Positions 1,829-16,414 of a DNA stretch of 16,455 nt are shown here, one piece after another. The notes beneath the pieces were generated by a model. It saw nothing but the letters and a program-made list of their open reading frames with translations, was not told where the DNA came from and made no database searches. This DNA comes from Myxococcales bacterium. GTDB lineage: Bacteria; Myxococcota_C; UBA6777. Within the stretch, counting starts at the first letter, position 1. Every line of letters begins with the position of its first letter. A program made the position numbers and the translations under genes. The stretch spans positions 2,664 through 19,118 of the forward strand of contig JALTMC010000330.1 of the NCBI GenBank assembly GCA_027005175.1. Reading direction: 5' to 3'.

Positions 1829-1953
1829 GCGGTCGGTGACCCGGTTTTGTGTGCAAGCGGTCAGTGACTCGGTTTTGTGTGCAAGCGGTCAGTGACCCGG
1901 TTTAAGCGGTCGGTGACCCGGTTTTGTGTGCAAGCGGTCGGTGACTCGGTTTT
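1826..1953. repeat. Tandem array of about 4.5 copies of a 28-bp unit (consensus caagcggtc[a/g]gtgac[c/t]cggttttgtgtg). It sits immediately upstream of the polyferredoxin start on the minus strand.
   Basis: Direct reading: near-identical units follow head-to-tail with one or two substitutions. Copy 3 is truncated (lacks tgtgtg) and the last copy is truncated. There are no unique spacers between units. Confidence 0.8.
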
Positions 1954-1956
1954 ACG

Positions 1957-1988
1957 GTAAAAAACAGTAGATTGGGTATGTTACTGTT
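1957..1988 (-). terminator. Candidate intrinsic terminator after the FAD-oxidoreductase gene (weak, AT-rich stem).
   Basis: On the minus strand, aacagta / 12-nt loop / tactgtt (7-bp stem) is followed by a TTTTTT run, about 5 nt after the stop at 1993. The stem has only 2 GC pairs, so confidence is low. Confidence 0.3.
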
Positions 1989-1992
1989 TGAC

Positions 1993-4082: not shown

Positions 4083-4454
4083 TCACACCAATTCATCACT
4101 GTCTTTCGGGGTTTCTCTAACAAGGACTAGGATAGCACTTTGTGGGACGATATGATACTTTTCCCCCTCAAACTCCAGTTCAATGGCTGCTTTTTTTAGG
4201 AATAGAGCGTGATCTCCCGGTTTTGCTTCCATGGGCATATAGCGGACAGAGACTTCGGAGGAGCTCCAGTCTGTGAGCAGGGAAGGCTCCACAAGCGGGG
4301 TGCCTCGTCCTGTTTTAATGATCGTCCCTTCCAGGACATCTTCTTTATCGCGGACAGTGTCCGGAAGATAGAGACCCACCTCTGTTCGCTTTTCGGAGTC
4401 ATCGACTTTTAAGAGAACCCGGTCTCCAATGACAATCAGTTCTGTGGTGTTCAA
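4083..4454 (-). CDS. Divergent Cpn10/GroES-family co-chaperonin-like protein (123 aa, TTG start). No GroEL partner is adjacent.
   Basis: Pattern match to GroES: the N-terminus has DRVLLK (cf. DRVIVK), a mobile-loop-like segment, and a KPGDHALF...IVPQSAILVLV C-terminal beta-hairpin region. A strong SD (aagaggt) sits 6-8 nt upstream of TTG. It is longer than canonical GroES. Confidence 0.55.
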   Translation of the reverse strand: MNTTELIVIGDRVLLKVDDSEKRTEVGLYLPDTVRDKEDVLEGTIIKTGRGTPLVEPSLLTDWSSSEVSVRYMPMEAKPGDHALFLKKAAIELEFEGEKYHIVPQSAILVLVRETPKDSDELV

Positions 4455-4591: not shown

Positions 4592-5350
4592 TTAGGCGTT
4601 GGCACTTTTGATAATTCCGATGAAGTCTTCTGCTTTGAGGGCTGCTCCGCCGACAAGGGCACCGTCGATGTTCTTTTGGGAGAGCAGTTCTCTGCTGTTC
4701 TTGGGCTTGACACTGCCACCATAGAGGATTCGTACAGCGTCTGCGACATCGGGGGAAAAGAGCTGAAAGAGGTGTGCACGGATAAAGGCGTGAGCTTCTT
4801 CTGCTTGTGTGGGAGTGGCGGTTTTGCCTGTTCCAATCGCCCATACAGGTTCGTATGCGATGATAAGCTCGGAGCCTTCTTCGTGAGTGAGGCCTGTGAG
4901 GCCCTGAAGGATCTGTTGTTCAATGACTCTGACAAAGTCGCCGCGTTCACGTTCTTCCAGGGTCTCTCCAAAACACACGATGGGGATCAGATTGTGTTGG
5001 AAGGCTGCCTTGATTTTCTTGTTGACGATCTCATTGGTTTCACCGAAGTATTTGCGACGTTCGGAGTGGCCGATAAGGATATAATCTGCGCCTGCATCTT
5101 TGAGGAAGGAGGGGGAGATCTCTCCAGTGAAAGCACCACTCTCTTCCCAATGCATATTTTGCCCTGCGACGCTGATATAGGATTTTGCACAAAATTCAAC
5201 GACAGTATCGAGCGCTGTAAAGGGTGGGGCGACAATCACATCCACTTCACCAGGCCAGGTGAGTCCATAGTGGAGACCTTGAACAAGCTCCAAAGCCTGC
5301 CTCTTGTGCATGTTCATCTTCCAGTTGCCAGCAATCACCGGAGTTCTCAT
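4592..5350 (-). CDS. tpiA: Triosephosphate isomerase.
   Basis: Hallmark TIM motifs: VIAGNWKMN near the N-terminus, GHSERR, and AYEPVWAIGTGKTAT. I chose the internal ATG at 5350 (MRTPVIAGNWKMN), preceded by a ggggag RBS. The ORF-track start at 5419 adds a non-conserved 23-aa extension. Confidence 0.9.
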   Translation of the reverse strand: MRTPVIAGNWKMNMHKRQALELVQGLHYGLTWPGEVDVIVAPPFTALDTVVEFCAKSYISVAGQNMHWEESGAFTGEISPSFLKDAGADYILIGHSERRKYFGETNEIVNKKIKAAFQHNLIPIVCFGETLEERERGDFVRVIEQQILQGLTGLTHEEGSELIIAYEPVWAIGTGKTATPTQAEEAHAFIRAHLFQLFSPDVADAVRILYGGSVKPKNSRELLSQKNIDGALVGGAALKAEDFIGIIKSANA

Positions 5351-5538
5351 CTCTCGCTCCCCTGTCAATCCAATACCTGAACAAAGAAAAAAGGGGCATA
5401 CGATCATCCATAAGGTCAAAACAAAGAGAAACTTATCATGCCCAATTGATACATTGTGAGTTTAGCAGAAAAATGGCAACAAGCCCAAAAACTACAGGTT
5501 CGGAAGGTGCATGATGATCTCCATCCTACTTTGCAAAC

Positions 5539-5585
5539 CATGCTCAGCGAGCATGTCCTCAGCGAGCGACTCCGTGAGCGACTCG
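5539..5585. promoter_or_regulatory. Perfect 7-bp inverted repeat catgctc-agc-gagcatg. It is followed by reiterated gagcgactc motifs, about 190 nt upstream of tpiA.
   Basis: Direct reading of the symmetry. A regulatory role is inference only. Confidence 0.25.
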
Positions 5586-5698
5586 TTGTGTAGGTTTGTA
5601 AGATCTTTTTGCAATCGATTGCTGCGATGACAAAGAGATTAAAAGTGAGATGGACTCCAGCCCGTCTGATGGAACCAAAAAGGGCCAAGTTCTTGCGA

Positions 5699-5814
5699 CG
5701 ACTTCGTTGCGGTAGCTGAGAAGAGAGCGTCTTGGGTCTTTCAGGAAACAGCACAGCCGTCAGCATATGACTTCGTTGCGGTAGCTGAGAAGAGAGTGTC
5801 TTGGGATTTTCAGG
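5699..5814. repeat. Two copies of a 47-bp direct repeat (gacttcgttgcggtagctgagaagagag[c/t]gtcttggg...ttcagga), period about 69 bp. The second copy abuts or overlaps the aldolase stop codon.
   Basis: Direct reading, about 44/47 identity. The repeated PKTLSSQLPQRS in the 5416..5934 shadow ORF is the same DNA repeat translated. Confidence 0.75.
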
Positions 5815-6703
5815 AGTTTCCCTGAAAGATCTTCTTGACCTCATCAAGGACAAGTTCTTCGAGTCGTGTTGGGTCGATGGGGACAGAGGCTTCGGTCCCT
5901 GCTGCTTTTGGTGACGGAGGCTGTGTTGTGTCAACAGATTTGGTCTCTTGTTTCTGTGTTTTGGCTTGTTGGTGGAGTTCTTCTTTCCACTGTTGGCGTG
6001 CTTCCTTTTCTCGCAGAGCTTTTTCTTGGAGGGCTGCTATTTTCTCTTGTCGGTTTTGGGGTCCTAAGCCGATGGATGCACGTTTTTTGAGTAGAGTGTC
6101 ACGATGTTCTTGAGCTAGGGTCATTGGCTGCCCCATTTGCATGGCATAATATTCGATTTTGGCGAGATGCTCGACAAGCTCGAGGCGTAGCCATGCTTGT
6201 TCAAGGTCATCTCCAATGGCTAAGATCCCATTGCCTGTCATCATGATGACATCGGCGATTTGCAATCCATCATGGATCAGTTTGTCATTCTCGGGAGCGC
6301 CAGGCATTGCAAAAGGGGTGACAGGAATACAGTCACCAATGGATACGATAGCTTCAGGGAGTGCTGGATATATTGGCTGGTTGACAAGGCCTCGTGCGGT
6401 GACAAAGGGGGGGTGGGCGTGGACCACAGCGTTGGCATCGGGTCTTGCACGGTAGGCGGAGAGGTGGAGCTTGATCTCCGAGAAAGGTCTGCCGATCCCC
6501 TCGATCTTTTTGCCCTCCATATCGAGGGTGATGACCATCTCTGGCTTGATGGAAGCTTTGCTCTCGGAGGTTGGGGTGGCGAGCAGCACATCGTCGAGGC
6601 GAGCGGATATATTGCCATCGTGATTGGCGGTGAAACCTTTATGGTCTAGTTTTTGAGAGATCTCTGCAATCAGGTTGCTGAGATAACTTCGCCTTGAACC
6701 CAT
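5810..6703 (-). CDS. Class II aldolase/adducin-family enzyme (FucA-like: fuculose/rhamnulose-1-phosphate or 5-deoxyribulose-1-phosphate aldolase type). It has a C-terminal Lys/Glu/Gln-rich linker and a terminal amphipathic helix that resembles a BMC encapsulation peptide.
   Basis: YRARPDANAVVHAHPPFVTA matches the FucA metal-binding region (YQSRPDANAVVHNHAVHCTA). The catalytic domain is about 210 aa. A roughly 85-aa tail then follows, ending PIDPTRLEELVLDEVKKIFQGNS (amphipathic, EP-like). Confidence 0.85.
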   Translation of the reverse strand: MGSRRSYLSNLIAEISQKLDHKGFTANHDGNISARLDDVLLATPTSESKASIKPEMVITLDMEGKKIEGIGRPFSEIKLHLSAYRARPDANAVVHAHPPFVTARGLVNQPIYPALPEAIVSIGDCIPVTPFAMPGAPENDKLIHDGLQIADVIMMTGNGILAIGDDLEQAWLRLELVEHLAKIEYYAMQMGQPMTLAQEHRDTLLKKRASIGLGPQNRQEKIAALQEKALREKEARQQWKEELHQQAKTQKQETKSVDTTQPPSPKAAGTEASVPIDPTRLEELVLDEVKKIFQGNS

Positions 6704-6708
6704 TGATT

Positions 6709-7362
6709 TTAACCCAACTGACTTCCGGTCTTGGTGGCTTGCATATGGTTGAGATGCTCAATGGCTTGTAGGGCAGCTTCTGCGCAGGAATCGATCTCCG
6801 ATTCCTTTCCGCTCAAGATCAGCCGTCCCGTTGCACCGTAAGGTTTGATGTGAATCAGTTTGACCTCTGCTGCTTTGAGTGCCTCGTTACAAATGAGGGA
6901 CATATAGGAAGCGGGCTTGGCTTCCAGAATCAAGAGTGATTCACCCGAGAGGACCATGTTCCCAGAGGCGAGGCTGGAGAAAAACATGGAGTGATCCTTT
7001 TCAACACCTCGGATGATCTGGTTGGTCAGGAGTTGGATCGGGGCGCGGTCATTTTCGTCCAATCCTGTTTCTCGAAGAACGGCTCGACCCGCTTCTTGAA
7101 CTTCGCCGTGGGTCGGATGGTGAACGACAAACAAACCAAAGTGTCGCTCTGTGATGATCTCTCCGAGTCGCACGCTTGTGCCCTTTAAGGCGAGGTCAAC
7201 CATACGGTGGATCTCCATGGCAGGTGAGATCTCCATCACCAGCGCAGAATCGTACTCTGAGGGATCATAGACGCTATTCTTTTGAGCAATAAACTGGGCC
7301 AACTGAGGTTGCAAACTGTCGATAAAAGTGAGGGTTCGCAGCTCGAAATATTGAGATAGCAT
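6709..7362 (-). CDS. BMC-T shell protein of the EutL/PduB type (tandem permuted BMC domains).
   Basis: 217 aa, about EutL length. It has two internally repeated halves. The second half, LLILEAKPASYMSLICNEALKAAEVKL...ILSGKESEIDSCAEAALQAIE, parallels EutL [23 protein letters not shown]...FLTGSQAACKAACNAF. A GGAG RBS lies upstream. Confidence 0.65.
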   Translation of the reverse strand: MLSQYFELRTLTFIDSLQPQLAQFIAQKNSVYDPSEYDSALVMEISPAMEIHRMVDLALKGTSVRLGEIITERHFGLFVVHHPTHGEVQEAGRAVLRETGLDENDRAPIQLLTNQIIRGVEKDHSMFFSSLASGNMVLSGESLLILEAKPASYMSLICNEALKAAEVKLIHIKPYGATGRLILSGKESEIDSCAEAALQAIEHLNHMQATKTGSQLG

Positions 7363-7415
7363 GAGTGCTCCGGTGCTTCGGTGTCTTTCGGTGTCTTTCG
7401 GTATCCAGGGGGAGA

Positions 7416-8330
7416 TTAATATTTTCCTTTTGCGGCTTTTTTTCCAGTGACAATGGCGATACTCGCTGAAGCACCGATTCGATTGGCTCCAGCCTTTATC
7501 ATCTTTTCCGCGTCTTCTCGTGAACGAACACCGCCAGAAGCTTTGACTTCCATGTCACAACCTACCACTCTTCGCATCAGCTCGACATCTTCTACAGTGG
7601 CTCCACCTGAACCAAAACCGGTGGAGGTCTTTACAAAGGCTGCACCGGCTGTTTTGCTAAGTGTACAGGCAATGACTTTTTCTTCGTCTGTGAGACTTGA
7701 GTTTTCAAGGATGACCTTGACTTTGTAGGGTGCTGAAGCTTTGACAACTTCGCGAATGTCTTCATACACCAGTTGGTACTCTCTGGACTTGAGTGCACCG
7801 ATGTTGATAACCATGTCTATCTCTTGGGCACCGTTTCGGATCGCCTCTTTGGCCTCAAAAGCTTTGGCATGACTCGTTGATGCGCCCAATGGAAAGCCAA
7901 CCACCGCGATGGGTTTGACGCCAGAGCCTCGCAATTGTCGTGCGACCAGCGGGATATTGCTCGCGTTGACGCAAACGGTAGCAAACTGATAACGCTTGGC
8001 TTCGTCGCAGATATTTAACAACTCTTCTCGGGTAGCATCCGCCTTTAATAAGGTGTGGTCGATGTATTTGGCGAGAGTATGGTCGATCTTCTCTCCAAAT
8101 CCAGGCTTTGCGCCAATTCGTACAGCGCCGGAGTTGATAATATTGCCACAGGCATCTTTTTTGATTGTGGCACAATGACCACATCCATCGCAGTTATCCA
8201 TGGAGAGCAGACAGGGGGCATCTCCACAAGACCCACCAGCTTGCATGCCGGCTCCACCGGATTGCAAGCGCTCCACCACTTGCTGGGTGATCTTGCGGAC
8301 AATCTCATCAAGGTTGTTATTTTGACTCAT
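7416..8330 (-). CDS. deoC: Deoxyribose-phosphate aldolase with an N-terminal extension of roughly 75 aa. The extension is an EP-like amphipathic helix followed by a Gly-rich linker and a six-Cys cluster.
   Basis: DeoC core motifs: [42 protein letters not shown], and VKASGGVRS (Schiff-base Lys region). N-terminus: [16 protein letters not shown], then GGAGMQAGG, then C-x4-C-x6-C-x2-C-x2-C-x7-C. Confidence 0.85.
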
Positions 8331-8349
8331 GGCGAACCCTTATCTTTTG

Positions 8350-8622
8350 TTATTCTGCACAGAATACCTTGTCTACAATACCAACAATTACCGAGTGAAA
8401 TGGATCGTCTTGTGTGCCCAGGAGTTGACGGGCTGAGTTCCCTTCTCGTTGGACAAGGACAACATCACCTTCTCCTGCCTGAACAGAGTCACAGGCAAGA
8501 AATGATTGTCCACAATCGTTGCCTTTTTCGTCGATGGGGTGAACGATAAGAACCGTATGTCCCTCAAAGCAGGGATGCTTTTCTGAGGCAACCACATTTC
8601 CTTTAACTCTTCCCAAGATCAT
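8350..8622 (-). CDS. BMC-P vertex (pentamer) shell protein, EutN/PduN/CcmL family.
   Basis: 90 aa. MILGRVKGNVVAS N-terminus and overall pattern typical of Pfam EutN_CcmL. Its start overlaps the stop of the upstream BMC-P by 4 nt (ATGA). Confidence 0.8.
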   Translation of the reverse strand: MILGRVKGNVVASEKHPCFEGHTVLIVHPIDEKGNDCGQSFLACDSVQAGEGDVVLVQREGNSARQLLGTQDDPFHSVIVGIVDKVFCAE

Positions 8623-8927
8623 GTCCCAAAGATCTCCTTTTTCCCGACGATCCCACTATCTTCGTTACTATAGACTTGGTCCACAATTCCGGTAATGGCA
8701 GCATCTACCGGGCTGAAGGGGTTGGGAAGTGCTAAGCTGGCTTCGCGAGACATGGTGAGATAGACCAAGTCATCAGGGCCAGCCTGAACAGAGTCGATGG
8801 CCACAAAGGGCTCTCCAGAGGGTTCCAGTCGGTCGTTGAGAGGCTCCACCATCAGGAGCTTAATCCCCTTCAAGGATGGGTCTTTGACTGTGGCTACCAC
8901 TGTGCCAATTACTTTTGCCAGTTGCAA
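8619..8927 (-). CDS. BMC-P vertex shell protein (second paralog).
   Basis: 102 aa. MQLAKVIGTVVATVKD N-terminus and FVAIDSVQAG motif, EutN/CcmL-like. Confidence 0.8.
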   Translation of the reverse strand: MQLAKVIGTVVATVKDPSLKGIKLLMVEPLNDRLEPSGEPFVAIDSVQAGPDDLVYLTMSREASLALPNPFSPVDAAITGIVDQVYSNEDSGIVGKKEIFGT

Positions 8928-8938
8928 TGTCTTATCTC

Positions 8939-9496
8939 CTACCTCTGGAATACTTTTTCAAGAAATTCAGGATGGGGGGAAGGGATGATCTCATAATTGG
9001 CTAACATACCTTCTTTTTGTGCATAACGCCATGCTGCTTCCATCGATGCTTCAAGTTGGTGGAGTTCTCCGGTGATCACAAAGTAGCCTTTTCCTCCGAG
9101 TCCACTACCCAATTTGAGTTCTACGAGTTGAACAGGTGTTGTCTTGGCTGCTCGGTCAGCGGCAAAAACGCAAGAGCATACGGAGAAGGTTTCGACGATA
9201 CCGATAGCACCGAAGGTCTCAATCGCGGTGCTTCCTGCGATCGCCGATAGCACGCTGTGATGGAGTTGAGGGATGATAATGTCATGGACGAGCCCGTCTC
9301 CGGCTGCCACAACACCAGCCTTGTGAGATTCTTCCACATCCCCCACTTCACCACCAAAAAGAGTGATGTACTTTCCGGGAGAGATCGGGTGGGATTGGAG
9401 AATCCGTACGGGCGCCTTTTTGGCAATGGCATCGGTGGAAAAGATACCTTTTGCCACAGACTTGTATTCGATCATCCCGAGAGCGGGCTCCTGCAT
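8939..9496 (-). CDS. BMC-T shell protein, PduT-like (tandem canonical BMC domains). The Fe-S ligand Cys of PduT is replaced by Ser.
   Basis: ALGMIEYKSVAKG...SHPISPGKY aligns to PduT AIGILELTSIAKG...SKTICPGKF (C to S). The second domain is AIGIVETFSVCSCVFAADRA. I chose the start at the internal ATG (MQEPALGM), preceded by aggaaaagagga. The ORF-track start at 9535 adds 13 aa. Confidence 0.75.
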   Translation of the reverse strand: MQEPALGMIEYKSVAKGIFSTDAIAKKAPVRILQSHPISPGKYITLFGGEVGDVEESHKAGVVAAGDGLVHDIIIPQLHHSVLSAIAGSTAIETFGAIGIVETFSVCSCVFAADRAAKTTPVQLVELKLGSGLGGKGYFVITGELHQLEASMEAAWRYAQKEGMLANYEIIPSPHPEFLEKVFQR

Positions 9497-9507
9497 TCCT
9501 CTTTTCC

Positions 9508-10839
9508 TTATCGTCTGGTGCGAATCTCGATCCATGCGTCACAAATATCGCTAACATGACCTGCAATGGATGCATGAAAACACAACCCAAGTTGATCCAG
9601 TGGACTCTCTGCTATCCTATCACCCATTCGTACCCTTTCTCCCACTCGTACCTGGGGGATCACAGGTACACCAAAGCGTTTCTCAAGCGGTACTCGAACC
9701 AAGCCAACGTGTTTTGTCCCCTCGTAAGGGAGCTTTTGAAGATAGCGCTGAATATCCATCTTTTTGAGCAGCATGGGAAGGGATACCCTGGCATTTTCGT
9801 AACCGGAACGTACCTTTGGCTCTTCTTGTGTTTTGGGATAGTGAAGTCCTCTTTGCTCTAACTCATTCCGGGTCTCTGCAAAAAGCTGTCGGGGAGAGAG
9901 TTGCATCACATCACAGGCTATCAAGTCGCAGACACCGCACTGGCTGCACAAAAAGGAAGACATCAAGTGCTCTGTGTCTACCTTGTTGTAGTTGATGGCC
10001 CGCATCATTTGATGGGGAAAGATGTCGTGCCCTGCGAGGTAGCGTGGACACATGTCTGTGCATCGCATACACTGACTGCAAGCCGCCTTGGATTGTTTTA
10101 GCATCTGTGTGGTGCTTTTGCTTTTTATGCGAATGATACAGTGGTCTTGTGCCAAGACCGTGATCCCATTTGTTGTTTTGGTGATCCCAAGACTGTGGTT
10201 CTGAACCAACCCTCCTCGCAGTGGACCCCCATCCAAAATGGCTACAGGATGTTGTGTGGTGCCGCCTGCCATATCCAATAGATCACTGTAGGTTGTTCCT
10301 ATCGGTACTCTTACGATTTTGGGTTCCGCGACCTCTCCCACGATACTGACGAGCTTTTCTGTGACAGCCTTCCCTCCCATTGCCCGAGCCATCTGAGCCA
10401 ACGATACAACATCATTCACGACAATACCGATGTCTCTGGGGCTTCCTCCTTCAGGAACAACACGCTTTTTGATGTCGTAGGTGAGGTGGACTTCATCTCC
10501 GGTCGGATGGTGGTCTCTCAGCGGAAAGAGTGAAATGGAGCCATCAGAGGGGAGAGCCTGGTTCAGAGACTCGAGCAACTTCGGTTGTGCTCCTCGGGTT
10601 GCGATAATTCCTTCCCGGGCTCCTGTCGCCGTCATCGCGAGCTTCAAACCGTCCATGACGAGATCGGGTCTTTCTTCCATTAATACCGTGTCGGTGGCGA
10701 GGAGAGGTTCGGATTCACTGCCATTGGCAATGACTGTATCCGCTTTCGCCAAGAGCTTGCGATACGTTGGTTCTCCCCCATCTCCGGAATCCATAATCCC
10801 AGCCAGTCGAACAGCATTGATGATCGCATTTCGCTTCAT
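9508..10839 (-). CDS. PduS-like (RnfC/Nqo1-like) Fe-S flavoprotein. It has a divergent N-terminal nucleotide/flavin-binding motif.
   Basis: Two 4Fe-4S motifs: CSQCMRCTDMCP and CSQCGVCDLIAC. The N-terminal SGDGGEPTYRKL sits where the plus-strand paralog has GAGGGGFPAHVKL. SESEPLL sits where the paralog has AECEPLL. Confidence 0.8.
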   Translation of the reverse strand: MKRNAIINAVRLAGIMDSGDGGEPTYRKLLAKADTVIANGSESEPLLATDTVLMEERPDLVMDGLKLAMTATGAREGIIATRGAQPKLLESLNQALPSDGSISLFPLRDHHPTGDEVHLTYDIKKRVVPEGGSPRDIGIVVNDVVSLAQMARAMGGKAVTEKLVSIVGEVAEPKIVRVPIGTTYSDLLDMAGGTTQHPVAILDGGPLRGGLVQNHSLGITKTTNGITVLAQDHCIIRIKSKSTTQMLKQSKAACSQCMRCTDMCPRYLAGHDIFPHQMMRAINYNKVDTEHLMSSFLCSQCGVCDLIACDVMQLSPRQLFAETRNELEQRGLHYPKTQEEPKVRSGYENARVSLPMLLKKMDIQRYLQKLPYEGTKHVGLVRVPLEKRFGVPVIPQVRVGERVRMGDRIAESPLDQLGLCFHASIAGHVSDICDAWIEIRTRR

Positions 10840-10851
10840 AAGACCGATACT

Positions 10852-12348
10852 TTAGAGGACACCAAAGTATCCCTTGAGGGTACATCTTCGGATACGAGTA
10901 AATGTGCGGGCTGTGGTCATGCCTTCTCCTGTGGGAGAGGCGATGGTGAAGGATGTTGGCCCTTCACCTCCCAGACCCAAACCCGCCAGAGAGCCGCCGT
11001 TTTTGACAAACAAACTTGTGTTCATCTTGATGGCCATCTTGTGCATATTGTCGATATTTTTGGAGTGAATGCAGGCGGTGTGAAAGCAGCCTTGTTCCAG
11101 TGTGTATGCGATATCGATCGCCTCATCGATATCTCTGGCTTGTATCAGTGGAACAACGGGCAACATCAACTCTTGCACAGCAAAGGGGTGATCTGCGTCG
11201 GTTTGAGTAATGGCCAGCCGCTTGGAGGCATCCACTTCCATCCCAATCTCTCGCAAGATGACCTGAACATCCTTACCCACAAACCTCTTTTCAACATGCC
11301 CATGATCGTCCAGGATAAGGTTCTTCAAGCGTCTGGTTTGGAAAGGGCTCAACTCCACGGCCCCGTGTTTGAGCATGTATTTCTTGAGCGGAGCAAGAGC
11401 TTTTCTTGTGGCGATGATCTCCTTTTCGACCACACAGATAATATTGTTGTCTGTGCTTGCACTGGTCACGATGTCACGTGCGGCTTGTTCCAAATCGGCA
11501 GTCTCATCAACAACCACCGGAGGGTTCCCCGGTCCGGCAGCGATCACTCGTTTCCCCGACTGCATCGCAGCTCGCACAACAACAGGGCCGCCGGTGACGA
11601 CCAACAGTCGGATACCTCGGTGCTTCATCAATCGCTGTGCGCTTTGGATGGTGGGAGAGCGCAAGGTGGTGAAGAGGTTGGGGGGACCCCCCTCTGAGAT
11701 GACCGCTTTGTTCATGATGTTGATCGTAAAGAGGGATACTTTTCGGGACGAAGGGTGAGGGTGAAAGACCACACTGTTTCCACCTGCCAACATCCCAATA
11801 CCGTTGTTGATAATGGTCTCTGAGGGATTGGTGGTGGGGGTGATGCTGCCGAGAACACCGAAGGGACATCTCTCTTCGAGAGTGAGCCCGTCGTCTCCCA
11901 CAAAACTGTTGGCTTCAATGTCTTCAACACCAGGGGTCTTGAGAATAGCAAGGCGGTTTTTTACCAGCTTGTCTTCATACCGGCCAAGCCCCGTTTCCTC
12001 CACGGCCATTCGGGCCAGATCTTCAAGGTGCTCCATGCAGATCTCACGAACCGCTGCAACGATCCTTTTGCGTTGCTCTATAGAGATGCTCCGAAATTCT
12101 TCGAATGCCTTCTGTGCCGCTTCTACAGCAGTGTCAAGGTCGGGAAAACAGCCCAACTCTCCCACACCCGAGCCCCAGGCTCGTGGACCCGGTACAAATG
12201 TAGGGCGGGCAGGAGGCGAAGGGGCCAGTACGGGAACAGAAGTTCGAGGGAGTGCTTGGGTAGGGTTGGAAGGCTCGTGGGAATCGACTGCCAACTGCTC
12301 GACGACGCGGTCGACAATGGAGCGAATTTGATCGTCCGTCACTTTCAT
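10852..12348 (-). CDS. CoA-acylating aldehyde dehydrogenase (PduP/EutE family) with an N-terminal encapsulation peptide and Pro-rich linker.
   Basis: Aldehyde dehydrogenase superfamily core, about 450 aa. N-terminus MKVTDDQIRSIVDRVVEQLA (amphipathic EP), then the linker PSNPTQALPRTSVPVLAPSPPARPTFVPGP. I chose the ATG at 12348 (ggaaaggtgg RBS). The ORF track starts 4 codons earlier at GTG. Confidence 0.85.
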   Translation of the reverse strand: MKVTDDQIRSIVDRVVEQLAVDSHEPSNPTQALPRTSVPVLAPSPPARPTFVPGPRAWGSGVGELGCFPDLDTAVEAAQKAFEEFRSISIEQRKRIVAAVREICMEHLEDLARMAVEETGLGRYEDKLVKNRLAILKTPGVEDIEANSFVGDDGLTLEERCPFGVLGSITPTTNPSETIINNGIGMLAGGNSVVFHPHPSSRKVSLFTINIMNKAVISEGGPPNLFTTLRSPTIQSAQRLMKHRGIRLLVVTGGPVVVRAAMQSGKRVIAAGPGNPPVVVDETADLEQAARDIVTSASTDNNIICVVEKEIIATRKALAPLKKYMLKHGAVELSPFQTRRLKNLILDDHGHVEKRFVGKDVQVILREIGMEVDASKRLAITQTDADHPFAVQELMLPVVPLIQARDIDEAIDIAYTLEQGCFHTACIHSKNIDNMHKMAIKMNTSLFVKNGGSLAGLGLGGEGPTSFTIASPTGEGMTTARTFTRIRRCTLKGYFGVL

Positions 12349-12450
12349 CAGAAAAACCACCTTTCCCTTTGGGAAGTACTGGTTTTGCTGGCGACAAAAC
12401 CAGGAGAGGGGGTGCCATAGGCATACAGGAGAAGAGAATCTTCTTCCGAA

Positions 12451-12738
12451 TTATTTGCTGTAACGCGTTTCCCCGTGAACCTCTACGAGGTCAACAATCG
12501 CCATAATGACGGTGTCTACTGGTTTTCCCTGGGTTATTGTTGTCTGGCGAGCCGCACTGCCCGCAGCAACAAGAACAACCTCTCCAATGCCGGCACCGAC
12601 AGAGTCGACGGCAACAACCATCCCTCCTGTCTCCTGGCATTGGACGTCAAGGTACTTGACGACATGCAGTCTTATTCCTTCGAGCTTCTCGTCTTTCTGT
12701 GTTGAAACGATCGTTCCAACAATTTTCCCGAGTTGCAT
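12451..12738 (-). CDS. BMC-P vertex shell protein (third paralog).
   Basis: MQLGKIVGTIVSTQKD...VVAVDSVGAG, EutN/CcmL-like. I chose the internal ATG at 12738 with an aaggag RBS 6 nt upstream. The 43-aa ORF-track extension is not conserved-looking. Confidence 0.8.
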   Translation of the reverse strand: MQLGKIVGTIVSTQKDEKLEGIRLHVVKYLDVQCQETGGMVVAVDSVGAGIGEVVLVAAGSAARQTTITQGKPVDTVIMAIVDLVEVHGETRYSK

Positions 12739-12971
12739 CAATGCTCCTTCAACGAGAAGAGAACGAAGCCCAAGTACCCCTTTCTTTCGAGCACCAACCC
12801 CTTGGTTTGTGGCTGCTGAAACCAACATGACACAATGGGTTTGTCCCGTAAGGGGGGACGGGAGCACTCAGGTACAATCACAGCAATGCAGAGTGTCTGA
12901 ATCTTGCGATCATCTCTGTGATGACTCCCGTGTCGGGATCACGTTCTCTGGTCGGATTGTCCAAGGTTTGA

Positions 12972-12991
12972 GTTGCTGTTGAACGCTCAAC
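12972..12991 (-). other. 7-bp-stem hairpin (ctgttga-acgc-tcaacag) just downstream of the BMC-H stop. It has no U-tract and is a possible intra-operon RNA structure.
   Basis: Inverted repeat read directly. Its position between the BMC-H and BMC-P genes is analogous to attenuating hairpins after shell genes in other BMC operons (inference). Confidence 0.3.
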
Positions 12992-12999
12992 AGTCCGTC

Positions 13000-13296
13000 T
13001 CAATCCCCAGACTTCTCACCATTGCGACCAAGGGGGAGTGTGCTATCTACGTTGGAGTGAGGTCTGGGAATCACATGAACGGAGACAAGCTCACCCACTT
13101 TTTCAGCCGCTCTAGACCCTGCTTCTGTCGCCGCTTTGACAGCCGCCACATCTCCACGAACAATGACCGTGACAAAACCACCACCGATCTTTTCGTAGCC
13201 AACAAGCTCTACTTTCGCTGCTTTGACCATCGCGTCAGAGGCTTCTACGACTCCAACAAAGCCTCTTGTCTCAATCATCCCTAATGCATCAGCCAT
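13000..13296 (-). CDS. BMC-H hexameric shell protein (PduA/PduJ/CcmK type, Pfam BMC).
   Basis: [57 protein letters not shown] is near-canonical for BMC-H. 98 aa. Confidence 0.9.
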
Positions 13297-13539
13297 ATAT
13301 ACGTGTCCTCTTTCTTGAATTGTGGGACGACCGTTTGGGTAATCGGCCGGAACTACTGTTCCGAATCATCGGTGGTATTCTCAGGTGAGCCGCTAACAAA
13401 GAAGGGCAAACCCTAGCACAGCAAATCAGGAGTGTCAAGAACTACAGACGATTCTTTTTTTCTCTTTTTCTCCTGTCAATACCGGTGCTTTTGGCCTTCT
13501 CTCAAAGCTCACTTCACATCTCGTGAACAGAGCAAAGAT

Positions 13540-13553
13540 AGAGTCTTGACTCT
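13540..13553. promoter_or_regulatory. Perfect dyad AGAGTC-tt-GACTCT in the roughly 500-bp divergent intergenic region between the two BMC operons. It overlaps a TTGACT -35-like hexamer with a weak TAGTTT 17 nt downstream.
   Basis: Symmetry read directly. The operator and promoter interpretation is inference. Confidence 0.3.
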
Positions 13554-13803
13554 CCTTGCCCCCTTTGCTAGTTTGGCCCCTTCACACCATTCGGACGTAG
13601 ACGTCGGCCGCTTGAACCGAGTCGTTGGCCGCTTGAACATAGGAACAGCGAGAAAACAACTTGAACATTTCGAACGGCAATCGCCGGAACCTTCGGGATT
13701 TACAATTCCCACATATGTTCAACTTCTTTGGTCGCCATTCCTAGAATGCAGAACCAGGTATTTGTTTCTCATTGAATTGAAAATGAGGTTGGAGTAGGTT
13801 TAT

Positions 13804-15147
13804 ATGCCGCATTTCTCATCGTCTTTTTCGGCAAAAGATATCGTGGAGAAGGTCCGACAGGCAGGCATTGTCGGTGCGGGAGGTGGAGGCTTTCCTGCGC
13901 ATGTCAAGCTCGATGCAAGTGTAGACTTTTTTATTGCCAACGCTGCGGAGTGTGAGCCTTTGCTGTGCAAGGATCAGCAGCTTATGGAGCTGCATGCACA
14001 ACGCATGGTGCATGGACTTCGTCTTGGGATGAAAGCCACTGGGGCGTCTCGTGGCATCGTCGCGATCAAGAAGAAGTACAAAAGAGCGATAGCCCAACTC
14101 GAAAAGTACGTGAGTGGGAACATCGACTTCTACCTCTACGACAACTTCTACCCTGCTGGAGATGAGTTTATCATCGTATATGATGTGTTGGGACGCTTGA
14201 TTCCACCAGGAGGGATACCTCTTGATGTGGGTTGTGTTGTCAACAATGTCGAAACACTGATCAATATCTCTTGTGCCATGGAGGATGTTCCTGTGACACA
14301 TTCCGCGCTGACGATCGCGGGTGCTGTTCATGAGCCTCTCTCTGTTGTGGCACCTCTTGGAACTTCTCTGCGAGAGCTTCTCGCTTTGGCGGGAGGGGCG
14401 ACTGTGGAGGACCCGGTTTTTCTCGATGGTGGTGCGATGATGGGGAAAGCTCTGGATGATCTGGATGCTCCTGTGACCAAGACATCAGCAGGTTATATCG
14501 TGATCCCCAGAGAACACCATCTCTATCGTCGCAAAACACGAAGCGATGAGGCCAATGTTCACATCTCTCGCTCTGCTTGTGACCAGTGTAGCTATTGTAC
14601 GGAACTGTGTCCTCGTTATCTTCTTGGTTATGCTATCGAACCACATGCGGTGATGCGTTCGGTTGGTTTTGAGGGGGACAAAGAAGCTCATTGGGCAAGA
14701 CTTGGCCTGTTGTGTTGTGAGTGCGGTATCTGCGACTTGTATGCCTGCCCTGAAGACCTGCCTGTGAAAGACATGCAGATCCGTTCCAAAGCCATCTGGA
14801 ATGCACGTGGATGGCCCAAAGAGCACCTCATTGGCTTGGACAGAGTTCATCCCATGCGAGACAGTCGTCGTGTGCCTATCCCACGATTGATTCAACGCTT
14901 AGGACTGACAGACTGGGATGTTACCGCTCCAATGACAACCAAGGTTCTGGAGCCGATGAATGTACAGTTGATGCTGAAACAACACGCTGGTGCTCCTGCG
15001 GTACCGATTGTTGGGGAGGGGGAGGTTGTGAAAGTCGGCCAACTTGTCGCGGCGATTCCCGATGGACAACTCGGTGCCAACATTCATGCAAGTATCGATG
15101 GATATGTAGCCCGTATCGATGACAACAGTATCTGGTTGACGAGGTAA
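13804..15147 (+). CDS. PduS-like (RnfC/Nqo1-like) Fe-S flavoprotein with canonical motifs.
   Basis: GIVGAGGGGFPAHVKL glycine-rich FMN/NADH motif. AAECEPLL. Two Fe-S motifs: CDQCSYCTELCP and CCECGICDLYACP. 447 aa. Confidence 0.85.
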   Translation: MPHFSSSFSAKDIVEKVRQAGIVGAGGGGFPAHVKLDASVDFFIANAAECEPLLCKDQQLMELHAQRMVHGLRLGMKATGASRGIVAIKKKYKRAIAQLEKYVSGNIDFYLYDNFYPAGDEFIIVYDVLGRLIPPGGIPLDVGCVVNNVETLINISCAMEDVPVTHSALTIAGAVHEPLSVVAPLGTSLRELLALAGGATVEDPVFLDGGAMMGKALDDLDAPVTKTSAGYIVIPREHHLYRRKTRSDEANVHISRSACDQCSYCTELCPRYLLGYAIEPHAVMRSVGFEGDKEAHWARLGLLCCECGICDLYACPEDLPVKDMQIRSKAIWNARGWPKEHLIGLDRVHPMRDSRRVPIPRLIQRLGLTDWDVTAPMTTKVLEPMNVQLMLKQHAGAPAVPIVGEGEVVKVGQLVAAIPDGQLGANIHASIDGYVARIDDNSIWLTR

Positions 15148-15150
15148 TTT

Positions 15151-15726
15151 ATGAGCTGGAGAAGTTTCGATAAACCCACTCCCCCTGCTATCGGTTTTCT
15201 GGAGCTTTCAAGTATTGCTCGTGGCATTGAAGCTACAGATGCGATGCTCAAAGCTGCCGATGTTCTCCTGGTGCTTGCCCGAACCATCTGCTCGGGAAAA
15301 TACATGGTTTTGGTCGCTGGTGAGGTTCAGGACATCGAAGCCAGCGTCGCCGCTGGCGTTGCAATCGGGAAGGAATGTACCATCGATCAATTTATCATTC
15401 CCAATGTTCATCCCGCTGTATTCCCTGCGGTGTCTTCCTCTGGTATGTTCCGCGGTAGCGGTGCTATCGGTATTATTGAGTCCTTCTCGGTAGCCTCTTT
15501 AATTGAAGCCATCGATCAGATCGCAAAAGCGGCACTGGTCGAGGTGGTGGAGTGTCGTCTTGCGATGGCTCTAGGTGGAAAAGCATATGTTGTCTTTACG
15601 GGCGATGTTGATGCCGTTCAATACTCCATTGATGCAGGCGCTGAGGTTGTTAAAAAGCGCGGTCTTTTGGTCAACCAGGTCGTCATTCCCAACCCTCGAA
15701 AAGAGTTGTTTGACACCCTGATCTAG
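15151..15726 (+). CDS. BMC-T shell protein, PduT-like, retaining the 4Fe-4S ligand Cys.
   Basis: AIGFLELSSIARGIEATDAMLKAADVLLVLARTICSGKY aligns to PduT ...KTICPGKF. The second BMC domain is AIGIIESFSVASLIEAIDQIAKAA. Its ATG is 3 nt after the PduS-like stop, with a gaggt RBS. Confidence 0.8.
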   Translation: MSWRSFDKPTPPAIGFLELSSIARGIEATDAMLKAADVLLVLARTICSGKYMVLVAGEVQDIEASVAAGVAIGKECTIDQFIIPNVHPAVFPAVSSSGMFRGSGAIGIIESFSVASLIEAIDQIAKAALVEVVECRLAMALGGKAYVVFTGDVDAVQYSIDAGAEVVKKRGLLVNQVVIPNPRKELFDTLI

Positions 15727-15748: not shown

Positions 15749-16414
15749 ATGAGTCGTAAACGATCCATTTTCGCGTTTTTGTTCGCATGTCTTGTGCCTG
15801 TACTCTTCCCAATGGAAGCTATAGCTCGAAAGAGCGTCAAAACGATCTGCAGTTGGAAGAACGCGAAAACGACTATCGGAACGGCCCGTGAGTTTCGAGG
15901 TTGGCAGGTCTATTCTCCTGCGATCGAATGCTTGGCGAAGCAACTACAAAAAGCAAATCCAGGACAAGACAGTCCTGAGGCTGCTCTCGTCACCTTTTTT
16001 CGTCGCTTGATGAAACAGCGTCCTTCATTCAGGGCAATCTTGTCACCAACGATGCATCCGAAGTTTCGTGTGCTCCTTGAGAAAGGACTGCTTGCTCAAA
16101 CAACAAAGTTTCGACGCTTTATTCTTCACTCTCGCATTCATGCCTCTCGTGCCCCCAAAGGCAATCGATTCTCGAAGCGGTTTGCCAAACAAGGCAACAC
16201 TATGTTTGGTGCCTTTGATCTGCTTGTGTTTGCTGAGGGCAATACCAGCAGTACCGATATAATTTTGTTTTTAAAGAAGACGAACAAACGCTGGTATATC
16301 CAAGGCTTTCTCGCGCACTGGTTACGTCCTTTGTTCAAAGGAATGAAACATCCTTGGTGGCTCAAGGCCAAGAAAAAGAAAACCAAGAAAACGGCATCCA
16401 AGCCGAAGCTCTAG
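15749..16414 (+). CDS. Hypothetical exported protein with a Sec-type signal peptide and a Lys-rich C-terminal tail.
   Basis: N-terminus MSRKRS-IFAFLFACLVPVLFP-MEAIA (n-h-c regions, AxA site). The C-terminus is KAKKKKTKKTASKPKL. An aaggag RBS lies 7 nt upstream. I recognise no domain. Confidence 0.5.
   Translation: MSRKRSIFAFLFACLVPVLFPMEAIARKSVKTICSWKNAKTTIGTAREFRGWQVYSPAIECLAKQLQKANPGQDSPEAALVTFFRRLMKQRPSFRAILSPTMHPKFRVLLEKGLLAQTTKFRRFILHSRIHASRAPKGNRFSKRFAKQGNTMFGAFDLLVFAEGNTSSTDIILFLKKTNKRWYIQGFLAHWLRPLFKGMKHPWWLKAKKKKTKKTASKPKL

What the first reader, a model, noticed from the sequence alone, without database searches (positions are those of the whole stretch)
5810..15726. Metabolosome locus combining DeoC (SPU-type) and a FucA-like class II aldolase (PVM-type), both EP-tagged
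The locus carries two different aldehyde-generating aldolases, each with an encapsulation-peptide-like extension. It also has an EP-tagged acylating aldehyde dehydrogenase, three BMC-P, one BMC-H and three BMC-T genes.

DeoC would yield acetaldehyde plus glyceraldehyde-3-phosphate (G3P). A FucA-family aldolase would yield lactaldehyde or acetaldehyde plus dihydroxyacetone phosphate (DHAP). The adjacent tpiA could funnel DHAP and G3P into glycolysis. This suggests a microcompartment that processes more than one sugar-phosphate, or a deoxy-sugar salvage route.

DeoC as signature enzyme with PduS is the bioinformatically described SPU type. The class II aldolase with a C-terminal EP is the Planctomycete-Verrucomicrobia-type (PVM) signature. 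Their co-occurrence in one operon is unusual and uncharacterised as far as I know.
Basis: partly seen in the sequence, partly recalled or inferred. Interest (0 to 1): 0.85.

Follow-up and report, generated by a model that had tools for sequence, protein, structure and literature searches.

The report
SPU5-type bacterial microcompartment operon
This is a real bacterial microcompartment gene cluster with two different aldehyde-producing aldolases tagged for encapsulation, but the combination is already catalogued as the SPU5 type and recurs in the same gene order in many uncultured bacteria, so it is a new example of a known, still untested, organelle type.

Summary
[quoted passage not shown] AldDH and DeoC carry N-terminal amphipathic helices and the aldolase a C-terminal one.

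The claim that the pairing is unusual does not hold. Nine of nine distinct full-length related loci share the order H-P-AldDH-PduS-T-P-P-DeoC-Tdp-aldolase, six of them followed by TIM. One matches Bdellovibrionales GWA2_49_15, a genome catalogued as SPU5 by Sutter 2021. The 2024 SPU paper already records the C-terminal EP on the SPU5 aldolase.

"PVM-type" and "FucA-like" are too loose. The aldolase belongs to an SPU5/HO subclade in which the third zinc-ligand His is Asn. It reaches no named NCBIfam family cutoff.

Most likely mechanism: DeoC, and probably the aldolase, release an aldehyde plus a triose phosphate inside the shell. AldDH makes acyl-CoA. PduS with an Fe-S BMC-T exports electrons. 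Untagged TIM merges the trioses outside.

Side observations:
- a conserved 4-Cys motif in the DeoC extension;
- a degenerate in-operon PduS/BMC-T pair backed by a second canonical pair.

The parts
13000..13296 (-). BMC-H shell protein (98 aa), first gene of the main operon
   Evidence: PF00936 E=1.2e-30. 79-84% identical to the first gene of L001-L004.
12451..12738 (-). BMC-P number 1 (95 aa; true start at M44 of the listed ORF)
   Evidence: PF03319 over residues 44-126 of the ORF. Orthologs are 95-96 aa and 64-72% identical.
10852..12348 (-). CoA-acylating aldehyde dehydrogenase (498 aa) with an N-terminal EP (about 12289-12345) and a Pro-rich linker
   Evidence: NF011927 (EutE-type) 626 bits against a cutoff of 403. 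The N-terminal helix DQIRSIVDRVVEQL has muH 0.67 and is conserved in L001-L004.
9508..10839 (-). In-operon PduS/MNdh homolog (443 aa) with degenerate conserved motifs
   Evidence: PF01512, SLBB, Fer4_17 and RnfC_N. GAGGxGFP has become DSGDGGEP, ECEP has become ESEP and YYPAGDE has become HHPTGDE. Only one of 119 other homologs (P0246) shares the degenerate Gly-loop and also lacks the other two motifs.
8939..9535 (-). In-operon tandem BMC-Ts (185-198 aa) with Ser in place of the pore Cys
   Evidence: Two PF00936 domains. The pore motif is PISPGKY, against P[ITV]CPGKY in the eight SPU5 orthologs whose BMC-Ts was compared. L092 carries the same Ser.
8619..8927 (-). BMC-P number 2 (102 aa)
   Evidence: PF03319 E=6.5e-28.
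8350..8622 (-). BMC-P number 3 (90 aa)
   Evidence: PF03319 E=5.7e-24.
7416..8330 (-). Deoxyribose-phosphate aldolase (304 aa) with an N-terminal EP helix (about 8259-8324) and a conserved 4-Cys motif (about 8172-8213)
   Evidence: TIGR00126 277 bits against a cutoff of 117. E. coli D102/K167/K201 equivalents are invariant in 120 homologs. C47, C50, G51 and C53 are present in 120/120 and C40 in 105/120. muH is 0.71. AF2 gives a helix at 3-24.
6709..7362 (-). CsoS1D/CcmP-like double-stacking BMC-Tdp (217 aa)
   Evidence: PF00936. PF27545 CsoS1D_N is recorded on the identical protein in L085. CcmP model 173 bits, below its cutoff. It occupies the same position in all related loci.
5810..6703 (-). 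Class II (PF00596) aldolase (297 aa), H-H-N metal-site variant, with a long helical linker and a C-terminal EP (about 5825-5872)
   Evidence: PF00596 E=6e-38. AF2 pLDDT 92, with helices at 215-255 and 278-293. Asn sits at FucA H155 in 121/121 clade members. The strict C-terminal EP motif is present in 108/120 homologs.
4592..5350 (-). Triosephosphate isomerase (252 aa, start MRTPVIAGNW), no EP
   Evidence: PF00121 E=1.8e-96. N-termini align flush with orthologs. TIM follows the aldolase in 6 of 9 distinct loci.
13804..15147 (+). Second, canonical PduS/MNdh homolog (447 aa), divergently transcribed
   Evidence: PF01512 E=5e-42. GAGGGGFP, ECEP and YPAGDE motifs are intact. rnfC model 239.5 bits against a cutoff of 246.
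15151..15726 (+). PduT-like BMC-Ts with a pore Cys (TICSGKY), partner of the second PduS
   Evidence: Two PF00936 domains, E=4.9e-44. The Cys aligns with the pore Cys of the SPU5 orthologs. The MNdh/BMC-T^SE pairing rule comes from PMC11626177.

Best explanation
The window carries a complete SPU5-type metabolosome operon from an uncultured bacterium. Its nearest named relatives are Bdellovibrionota and Gammaproteobacteria MAGs.

Proposed mechanism, with each step marked as shown or inferred:
1. DeoC, drawn into the shell by its N-terminal EP, cleaves 2-deoxyribose-5-phosphate to acetaldehyde and glyceraldehyde-3-phosphate. The family assignment and catalytic residues are shown. DERA activity has been shown only for an SPU6 ortholog in the literature.
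2. The C-terminally EP-tagged class II aldolase is a second lumenal enzyme. It most probably cleaves a ketose-1-phosphate to DHAP plus a short aldehyde. This is inferred, and the substrate is unknown.
3. The N-terminally EP-tagged EutE-type AldDH converts the aldehyde(s) to acyl-CoA and makes NADH. This follows from the family assignment.
4. No alcohol dehydrogenase or PTAC is encoded. NAD+ is regenerated by a PduS/MNdh flavo-Fe-S protein that passes electrons out through the 4Fe-4S cluster of its partner BMC-T. This is inferred from the published MNdh model. In this window only the divergent second pair looks competent.
5. The CsoS1D-like BMC-Tdp is the likely gate for sugar phosphates (literature proposal).
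6. Triose phosphates leave, and the untagged TIM interconverts DHAP and G3P in the cytosol (inferred).
For: Gene content and domains.

Synteny: nine of nine distinct full-length loci share the order. They are the window, L001-L005, L087, L088 and L089/L091, reached independently from the aldolase side and the DeoC side. Per-gene identity over the five aligned loci (window and L001-L004) is 47-84%.

Link to the catalogue: L091 carries a protein annotated A2X86_14130 from Bdellovibrionales GWA2_49_15. The catalogue lists A2X86_14105 as an SPU5 216-aa Tdp and A2X86_14125 as an SPU5 PduT-like protein. This matches the gene spacing in L091. The SPU5 definition is, and the SPU5 aldolase C-terminal EP, absence of RPI and TPI association are.

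Encapsulation peptides.

Enzymes: DeoC equivalog score and invariant D/K/K. AldDH subfamily score. MNdh/BMC-T^SE model and statistics. Intact motifs in the second pair.

Context: nucleoside-catabolism genes flank some related loci. These are PNP_UDP_1 in L002, and thymidine kinase, a phosphopentomutase-like metalloenzyme and a cytidine deaminase in L003.
Against: - No SPU5 protein has been tested experimentally.
- The aldolase lacks the third His metal ligand and reaches no named NCBIfam cutoff, so its activity and direction are open.
- No kinase or isomerase that would supply a ketose-1-phosphate is encoded in the window or in the related loci examined.
- No PTAC is present, so CoA recycling is unexplained.
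- The in-operon PduS/BMC-T pair, which is the canonical redox pair in the orthologous loci, is degenerate here.
- Nucleoside-catabolism genes do not flank the window itself.
Confidence: 0.8

Rival explanations
1. The class II aldolase works in the synthetic direction inside or next to the shell. It would condense G3P from DeoC with DHAP from TIM into a hexose bisphosphate. On this reading the BMC has a single aldehyde source, DeoC, and the aldolase acts downstream. This is the scheme drawn for SPU loci in the 2024 SPU paper.
For: The 2024 paper places the class II aldolase and TPI linearly after DERA, with fructose-1,6-bisphosphate as a possible exit product. TIM directly follows the aldolase in 6 of 9 loci.
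Against: PF00596 is the FucA/RhaD/AraD family, not the FBP-aldolase family. The best NCBIfam and PDB matches are fuculose-, 5-deoxyribulose- and ribulose-1-phosphate aldolases. TIM has no EP, so DHAP would have to enter the shell. Encapsulating an enzyme whose substrates are non-volatile triose phosphates has no evident rationale.
Confidence: 0.12
2. The aldolase homolog is not an aldolase here. With the His-to-Asn change at the metal site it would be either a different PF00596-type catalyst or mainly a structural core partner of DeoC. On the second reading it takes the place of the catalytically inactive RPI that forms a complex with DERA in other SPU subtypes and is absent from SPU5.
For: Asn replaces the third metal ligand in all 121 clade members and in all SPU5 loci. 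The protein reaches no named family cutoff. The PF00596 fold also supports epimerases, dehydratases, decarboxylases and non-haem-iron oxygenases. The SPU RPI is inactive on R5P and co-purifies with DERA, and RPI is absent from SPU5.
Against: The other catalytic and phosphate-binding positions are invariant: FucA N29, S72, E73, H92 and H94. That pattern points to selection on an active site. Related BMC aldolases that keep His occupy the same signature position in ACI, PVM-like and SPU-like loci.
Confidence: 0.15
3. The locus is a recent hybrid of an SPU locus and a PVM locus.
For: Both a DeoC and an EP-tagged PF00596 aldolase are present.
Against: The whole unit is conserved in order across lineages whose genes are only 47-84% identical. 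PVM accessory genes (lactate/malate dehydrogenase-like, acetate kinase, PTAC, DeoR regulator) are absent. The aldolase's nearest relatives are HO-type, not from Planctomycetota or Verrucomicrobiota. The catalogue places the SPU5 AldDH nearest the HO type.
Confidence: 0.03

Closest known systems
SPU5 subtype of sugar-phosphate-utilising BMC loci (Sutter et al. 2021, PMC8217296; 2024 SPU paper, PMC11585597)
   Same: AldDH with an N-terminal EP. No RpiB. DeoC. A pfam00596 aldolase with a C-terminal EP. A BMC-P triplet, a single BMC-H, PduS plus BMC-Ts, a CsoS1D-like BMC-Tdp and TPI. The gene order is identical to the locus of the catalogued genome Bdellovibrionales GWA2_49_15.
   Different: The window has a second, divergently transcribed PduS/BMC-Ts pair. 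Its in-operon pair has lost the Gly-rich motif and the pore Cys. The aldolase linker is much longer: about 80-90 aa follow the core, against a clade median of about 36. A 390-bp spacer containing a 47-nt direct repeat separates the aldolase from TIM.
HO-type BMC of Haliangium ochraceum and other Myxococcota
   Same: The catalogue places the SPU5 AldDH closest to HO. HO satellite loci of the form BMC-P, BMC-P, aldolase carry the aldolases nearest to the SPU5 clade. Some of these also have Asn at the third ligand position. Both types have a BMC-P triplet and a CsoS1D-like BMC-Tdp.
   Different: HO main loci lack DeoC, which sits elsewhere in some genomes. The structurally characterised HO BMC-T lacks the pore Cys. 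The function of HO is unknown.
PVM BMC (Planctomycetes/Verrucomicrobia; fucose and rhamnose degradation)
   Same: [quoted passage not shown]
   Different: PVM has no DeoC. It carries a lactate/malate-dehydrogenase-like NAD+ recycler, an acetate kinase and a DeoR regulator, none of which is present here. No Planctomycetota or Verrucomicrobiota appear among the 80 closest species-representative aldolase loci.
SPU6 BMC (Chloroflexi), the only SPU subtype with characterised enzymes
   Same: Its DERA has an N-terminal helix plus an extra element and shows measured deoxyribose-5-phosphate aldolase activity.
   Different: SPU6 has RPI, a C-terminal EP on AldDH, no PduS and no class II aldolase.

Membership tests
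SPU5 BMC locus (Sutter 2021) | pfam00171 AldDH with an N-terminal EP | tested here: met
SPU5 BMC locus (Sutter 2021) | No pfam02502 RpiB in the locus | tested here: met
   None of the 19 gene-sized ORFs scanned hits PF02502. No unassigned space in 4592-15726 is large enough for such a gene.
SPU5 BMC locus (Sutter 2021) | pfam01791 DeoC and/or a pfam00596 aldolase with a C-terminal EP | tested here: met
   Both are present. The EP helix is at aldolase residues 278-293.
SPU5 BMC locus (Sutter 2021) | BMC-P triplet plus a single BMC-H | tested here: met
   Three PF03319 genes and one single-domain PF00936 gene. The colour-clade assignment (green/grey/orange) was not tested.
SPU5 BMC locus (Sutter 2021) | PduS homolog adjacent to a BMC-Ts with a pore Cys | tested here: met
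   Met by the pair at 13804-15726 (TICSGKY). The in-operon pair has Ser instead.
SPU5 BMC locus (Sutter 2021) | CsoS1D-clade BMC-Tdp (present in about half of catalogued loci) | tested here: met
   PF27545 CsoS1D_N is recorded on the identical protein in L085.
SPU5 BMC locus (Sutter 2021) | Synteny with a catalogued member | tested here: met
   L091 carries the protein annotated A2X86_14130 of Bdellovibrionales GWA2_49_15 and has the same order.
SPU5 BMC locus (Sutter 2021) | Assignment by the published BMC HMM set or BMC Caller | not testable with these tools
   The HMM library is not available here.
PVM BMC locus | Accessory set: lactate/malate-DH-like enzyme, acetate kinase, PTAC, DeoR regulator | tested here: not met
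   None is found among the window ORFs.
PVM BMC locus | Aldolase orthologous to PVM aldolases | tested here: inconclusive
   No PVM sequence was available for direct comparison. The best 80 genome hits contain no Planctomycetota or Verrucomicrobiota.
L-fuculose-1-phosphate aldolase (FucA, TIGR01086) | Score at or above the curated equivalog cutoff | tested here: not met
   89.8 bits against 400.25. No PF00596-type NCBIfam model reaches its cutoff.
L-fuculose-1-phosphate aldolase (FucA, TIGR01086) | Zn site H92/H94/H155 plus E73 | tested here: not met
   The H155 equivalent is Asn. H92, H94 and E73 are kept.
Deoxyribose-phosphate aldolase (TIGR00126) | Equivalog cutoff and the catalytic Asp/Lys/Lys | tested here: met
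   277.3 bits against 117.3. D102/K167/K201 equivalents are invariant.
MNdh / BMC-T^SE NAD+-recycling module (PMC11626177) | PduS homolog immediately adjacent to a BMC-Ts carrying the CP(G/S)K Fe-S motif | tested here: met
   Pair 2 has adjacent genes and the motif C-S-G-K, so the Cys is present but Pro is replaced by Ser. Pair 1 has S-P-G-K, and its PduS has lost the Gly-rich loop.

The most novel reading that the evidence does not exclude
The SPU5/HO aldolase clade is a functionally distinct enzyme that nobody has described. Its metal site is His-His-Asn-Glu rather than His-His-His-Glu, and it has a strictly conserved C-terminal EP. It would make the SPU5 organelle a two-substrate compartment. 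For example, deoxyribose-5-phosphate and a 5-deoxy or 6-deoxy ketose-1-phosphate from nucleoside or SAM by-product salvage could both feed one acylating dehydrogenase. Alongside this, the invariant C-x2-C-G-x-C element in the BMC-type DeoC extension would bind a metal or Fe-S cluster and couple the signature enzyme to the PduS/BMC-T redox module.
Probability: 0.2. Interest if true: 0.55.

Novelty: new member of a known kind. Interest (0 to 1): 0.3.

Why it matters
SPU is one of the most widespread BMC types, and no SPU5 component has been tested. This window adds a clean, complete SPU5 example. It confirms that DeoC plus an EP-tagged class II aldolase is the normal state of this operon and not an oddity.

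Three details give experimental handles:
- an Asn at the third metal ligand of the aldolase, specific to the SPU5 and some HO-type aldolases;
- a conserved 4-Cys element in the encapsulated DeoC, which the text of the 2024 SPU paper does not mention;
- paired loss of the FMN-loop motif in PduS and the pore Cys in its partner BMC-T, compensated by a second pair. This fits the proposed functional coupling of MNdh and BMC-T^SE.

None of this changes the main verdict that the locus type is already catalogued.

Tried and rejected
- A single-sequence scan of species-representative genomes with the aldolase found nothing. An alignment-based scan worked.
- Supplementary tables of the 2024 SPU paper are not held, so per-locus SPU5 counts come only from Sutter 2021.
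- The Rfam scan of the whole window gave no hits.
- Promoter-like sites were not above the shuffle expectation. The terminator scan showed nothing clear between the aldolase and TIM.
- AlphaFold2 could not resolve the DeoC Cys-motif region: residues 25-57 have pLDDT below 50. Its fold and any metal binding therefore remain untested.
- The PDB fold search returned FucA and the Bacillus thuringiensis 6BTD/6BTG aldolase at essentially equal scores, so it does not discriminate substrate.
- An Arg at the FucA F206 position might have hinted at a bisphosphate substrate. The tail sequences listed suggest an equivalent Arg/Lys is common in His-type BMC aldolases from other locus types too, so I dropped this idea. 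I did not tabulate that column across the wider set.
- The source organism could not be named. The window's proteins are on record in GCA_015485625.1 and an ENA metagenome without names.
- The lookup for P0240 (Aminicenantes) found nothing on record.
- The NapH-like membrane Fe-S protein and FAD oxidoreductase at 17-3279 were considered as the external electron acceptor. They are not present in the related loci.

Full report
**1. What is in the window**

ORF listing and Pfam/NCBIfam scans give a minus-strand operon:
- BMC-H (13000-13296)
- BMC-P (12451-12738)
- AldDH (10852-12348)
- PduS homolog (9508-10839)
- tandem BMC-Ts (8939-9535)
- BMC-P (8619-8927)
- BMC-P (8350-8622)
- DeoC (7416-8330)
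- 217-aa BMC-T (6709-7362)
- class II aldolase (5810-6703)
- after a 390-bp spacer, TIM (4592-5350)

A second PduS homolog (13804-15147) and a second tandem BMC-Ts (15151-15726) are transcribed divergently. The 217-aa BMC-T is CsoS1D-like: the identical protein on contig L085 carries PF27545.

**2. Encapsulation peptides**

- The aldolase core ends near residue 214. AlphaFold2 (mean pLDDT 92.4) then predicts a long single helix (215-255), a disordered stretch, and a terminal helix at 278-293.
- The DeoC model has a helix at residues 3-24.
- Hydrophobic moments of the three terminal helices (aldolase 280-293, DeoC 5-18, AldDH 6-19) are 0.64-0.71, at or above the 99th percentile within their own proteins. 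TIM and both PduS proteins lack such a terminal helix.
- The helices are conserved while the linkers vary. The strict C-terminal motif [LIVM]xx[LIVMA][LIVM]xxE[LIVM] occurs in 108 of 120 aldolase homologs.

**3. Conservation with the shell genes**

- Four contexts reached from aldolase homologs (L001-L004), one from the genome scan (L005) and three reached independently from DeoC homologs (L087-L089) were examined.
- All have the order H-P-AldDH-PduS-Ts-P-P-DeoC-Tdp-aldolase. TIM follows in 6 of 9 distinct loci, counting the window.
- Per-gene identity of L001-L004 to the window is 47-84%.
- The second refutation condition, an unrelated neighbouring gene, is also not met.

**4. Already catalogued**

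- Sutter et al. 2021 (Supplementary Data 2) define SPU5. [quoted passage not shown] RpiB is absent. DeoC is in four loci and a pfam00596 aldolase with a C-terminal EP is in five. [quoted passage not shown] A CsoS1D-clade BMC-Tdp is in four loci. Hosts are Proteobacteria plus one Chloroflexi.
- The 2024 Communications Biology paper states that RPI is completely absent from SPU5, that a C-terminal EP is predicted on the SPU5 class II aldolase, and that TPI and class II aldolases occur in SPU loci.
- A homolog of the window's PduS is annotated A2X86_14130 of Bdellovibrionales GWA2_49_15. The catalogue trees list A2X86_14105 as an SPU5 216-aa CsoS1D-like Tdp and A2X86_14125 as an SPU5 PduT-like protein.
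- The contig carrying that protein (L091) reads H-P-AldDH-PduS-Ts-P-P-DeoC-Tdp(216 aa)-aldolase-TIM. That fits the locus-tag spacing and is identical to the window's order.
- The DeoC plus class II aldolase combination is thus the standard form of a published subtype, not an unusual hybrid.

**5. What kind of class II aldolase**

- Alignment to E. coli FucA shows N29, S72, E73, H92 and H94 conserved. The third zinc ligand, H155, is Asn in the window and in all 120 closest homologs.
- In 87 aldolases from the window and the related loci, Asn occurs in all seven aldolases of the six SPU5 loci then in hand. It also occurs in seven others: six HO-style 'P-P-aldolase' loci and one Bacteriovoracaceae contig with no shell genes in view. 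The other 73 keep His. They include those in ACI-style (aldolase-H-P-P-P), PVM-like and SPU-like architectures.
- The aldolases of L087, L088, L089 and L091 also read GNG.
- No NCBIfam model of this superfamily reaches its cutoff. Scores against cutoffs are: FucA 90/400, ribulose-1-P aldolase 97/300, RhaD 27/401, MtnB 56/137.
- The PDB fold search ranks FucA and the Bacillus thuringiensis 6BTD/6BTG aldolase equally.
- No Planctomycetota or Verrucomicrobiota appear among the best 80 species-representative hits.
- The enzyme is therefore a member of the BMC-associated PF00596 family, in an SPU5/HO subclade with an altered metal site. Its substrate is unknown. 'PVM-type' and 'FucA-like' hold only at superfamily level.

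**6. Mechanism**

- DeoC passes the deoC equivalog cutoff (277 against 117 bits) and keeps the catalytic Asp/Lys/Lys.
- AldDH passes the EutE-type subfamily cutoff (626 against 403 bits).
- No alcohol dehydrogenase or PTAC is present.
- The published MNdh model proposes that PduS homologs oxidise NADH in the lumen and pass electrons out through the Fe-S cluster of the adjacent BMC-Ts. It reports 361 AldDH-containing loci that lack an alcohol dehydrogenase but have PduS/T.
- I therefore propose the following scheme. DeoC, and probably the aldolase, release aldehyde plus triose phosphate in the lumen. AldDH makes acyl-CoA. MNdh/BMC-T^SE recycles NAD+. The CsoS1D-like BMC-Tdp admits sugar phosphates. 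Untagged TIM works outside.
- Family assignments, catalytic residues, EPs and synteny are shown here. The aldolase reaction, metabolite routing and electron export are inferred.
- Some related loci are flanked by nucleoside-catabolism genes, which fits a deoxyribose source.

**7. Rivals**

- The aldolase condenses G3P and DHAP, as drawn in the 2024 scheme. This is disfavoured by the family's chemistry and by TIM lacking an EP.
- The Asn variant is a different catalyst, or a structural partner replacing the inactive RPI of other SPU subtypes. This is possible. However, the rest of the active site is invariant.
- A recent SPU/PVM hybrid is essentially excluded by the conserved synteny and the missing PVM accessory genes.

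**8. Extra observations**

- The DeoC extension contains C47-x2-C50-G-x-C53 in 120 of 120 homologs and C40 in 105 of 120. Among 107 more distant DeoC representatives with at least 45 residues upstream of the barrel, 25 have the same 4-Cys spacing. By eye, several of the others listed have a C-x2-C...C-x3-C variant, and many are followed by a GAxR[IV] segment. Twenty-one of the 25 are 400 aa or longer, which probably marks RPI-DERA fusions. The 2024 paper's text does not mention this motif.
- The window's in-operon PduS has lost three conserved motifs and its BMC-Ts has Ser at the pore Cys. Among 120 homologs only P0246 (66% identical) shares the degenerate Gly-loop (and also lacks the other two motifs), and its neighbouring BMC-Ts also has Ser. 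The divergent second pair is canonical.

**9. Verdict**

The feature is real and correctly described. The novelty claim fails: this is a new member of the catalogued, experimentally uncharacterised SPU5 type.

Noticed in passing
window 7416-8330 (-), residues 40-53 (about 8172-8213): The DeoC N-extension has a 4-Cys motif, C-x6-C-x2-C-G-x-C, between the EP helix and the barrel. C47, C50 and C53 are invariant in 120/120 homologs and C40 is present in 105/120. The same spacing is found in 25 of 107 more distant extended DeoC representatives, 21 of them 400 aa or longer (probably RPI-DERA fusions). The 2024 SPU paper's text does not mention it. It may be a Zn or Fe-S site. AF2 confidence there is below 50.
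   Followed up: partly
window 9508-10839 (-) and 8939-9535 (-), against 13804-15726 (+): The in-operon PduS has DSGDGGEP, ESEP and HHPTGDE where homologs have GAGGxGFP, ECEP and YYPAGDE. Its partner BMC-Ts has Ser at the pore Cys. A second divergent PduS/BMC-Ts pair is canonical. Only one other lineage (P0246 on L092, 66% identical) shares the degenerate Gly-loop, and its BMC-Ts also has Ser. This is an exception to the reported universal CP(G/S)K motif next to MNdh.
   Followed up: partly
window 5810-6703 (-), residue 158: Asn replaces the third metal-ligand His (FucA H155) in every SPU5 aldolase and in seven others (six HO-type 'P-P-aldolase' loci and one Bacteriovoracaceae contig with no shell genes in view). 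ACI, PVM-like and SPU-like BMC aldolases keep His.
   Followed up: yes
window 5700-5746 and 5769-5815: A 47-nt direct repeat (94% identical, 69-nt spacing) starts at the last codons of the aldolase gene. It lies in a 390-bp aldolase-TIM spacer. In the other loci that have TIM, it follows the aldolase gene(s) within a few tens of bases. It may be a remnant of a duplication or insertion.
   Followed up: partly
window 5810-6703 (-), residues 215-255: The window's aldolase linker is unusually long: about 80-90 aa follow the core, against a clade median of about 36. AF2 predicts it as one charged helix of about 40 residues (QEKIAALQEKALREKEARQQWKEELHQQ...).
   Followed up: no
L002 10775-11548: A second tandem aldolase copy in a Gammaproteobacteria MAG has an N-terminal hydrophobic, signal-peptide-like segment and lacks the C-terminal EP. 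It keeps the Asn variant.
   Followed up: no
window 17-1828 (-) and 1993-3279 (-): A NapH-like polytopic Fe-S membrane protein (603 aa) and an FAD/NAD(P) pyridine-nucleotide-disulfide oxidoreductase lie downstream of the locus. They could be an electron sink for the PduS/BMC-T module, but they are not found next to the related loci.
   Followed up: partly
window 4083-4454 (-): A 123-aa GroES-like protein scores below every GroES model cutoff. It directly follows TIM here and on L085. No groEL is adjacent.
   Followed up: no
window 15749-16414 (+): A 221-aa protein with a signal-peptide-like N-terminus and a Lys-rich C-terminus follows the second BMC-Ts. It has no Pfam or NCBIfam hit.
   Followed up: no
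L003 1-3376 and 18990-19463; L002 1-302: Related SPU5 loci are flanked by thymidine kinase, MFS transporters, a phosphopentomutase-like metalloenzyme, a cytidine deaminase (L003) and a PNP_UDP_1 nucleoside phosphorylase (L002). This fits a nucleoside-derived deoxyribose supply.
   Followed up: no
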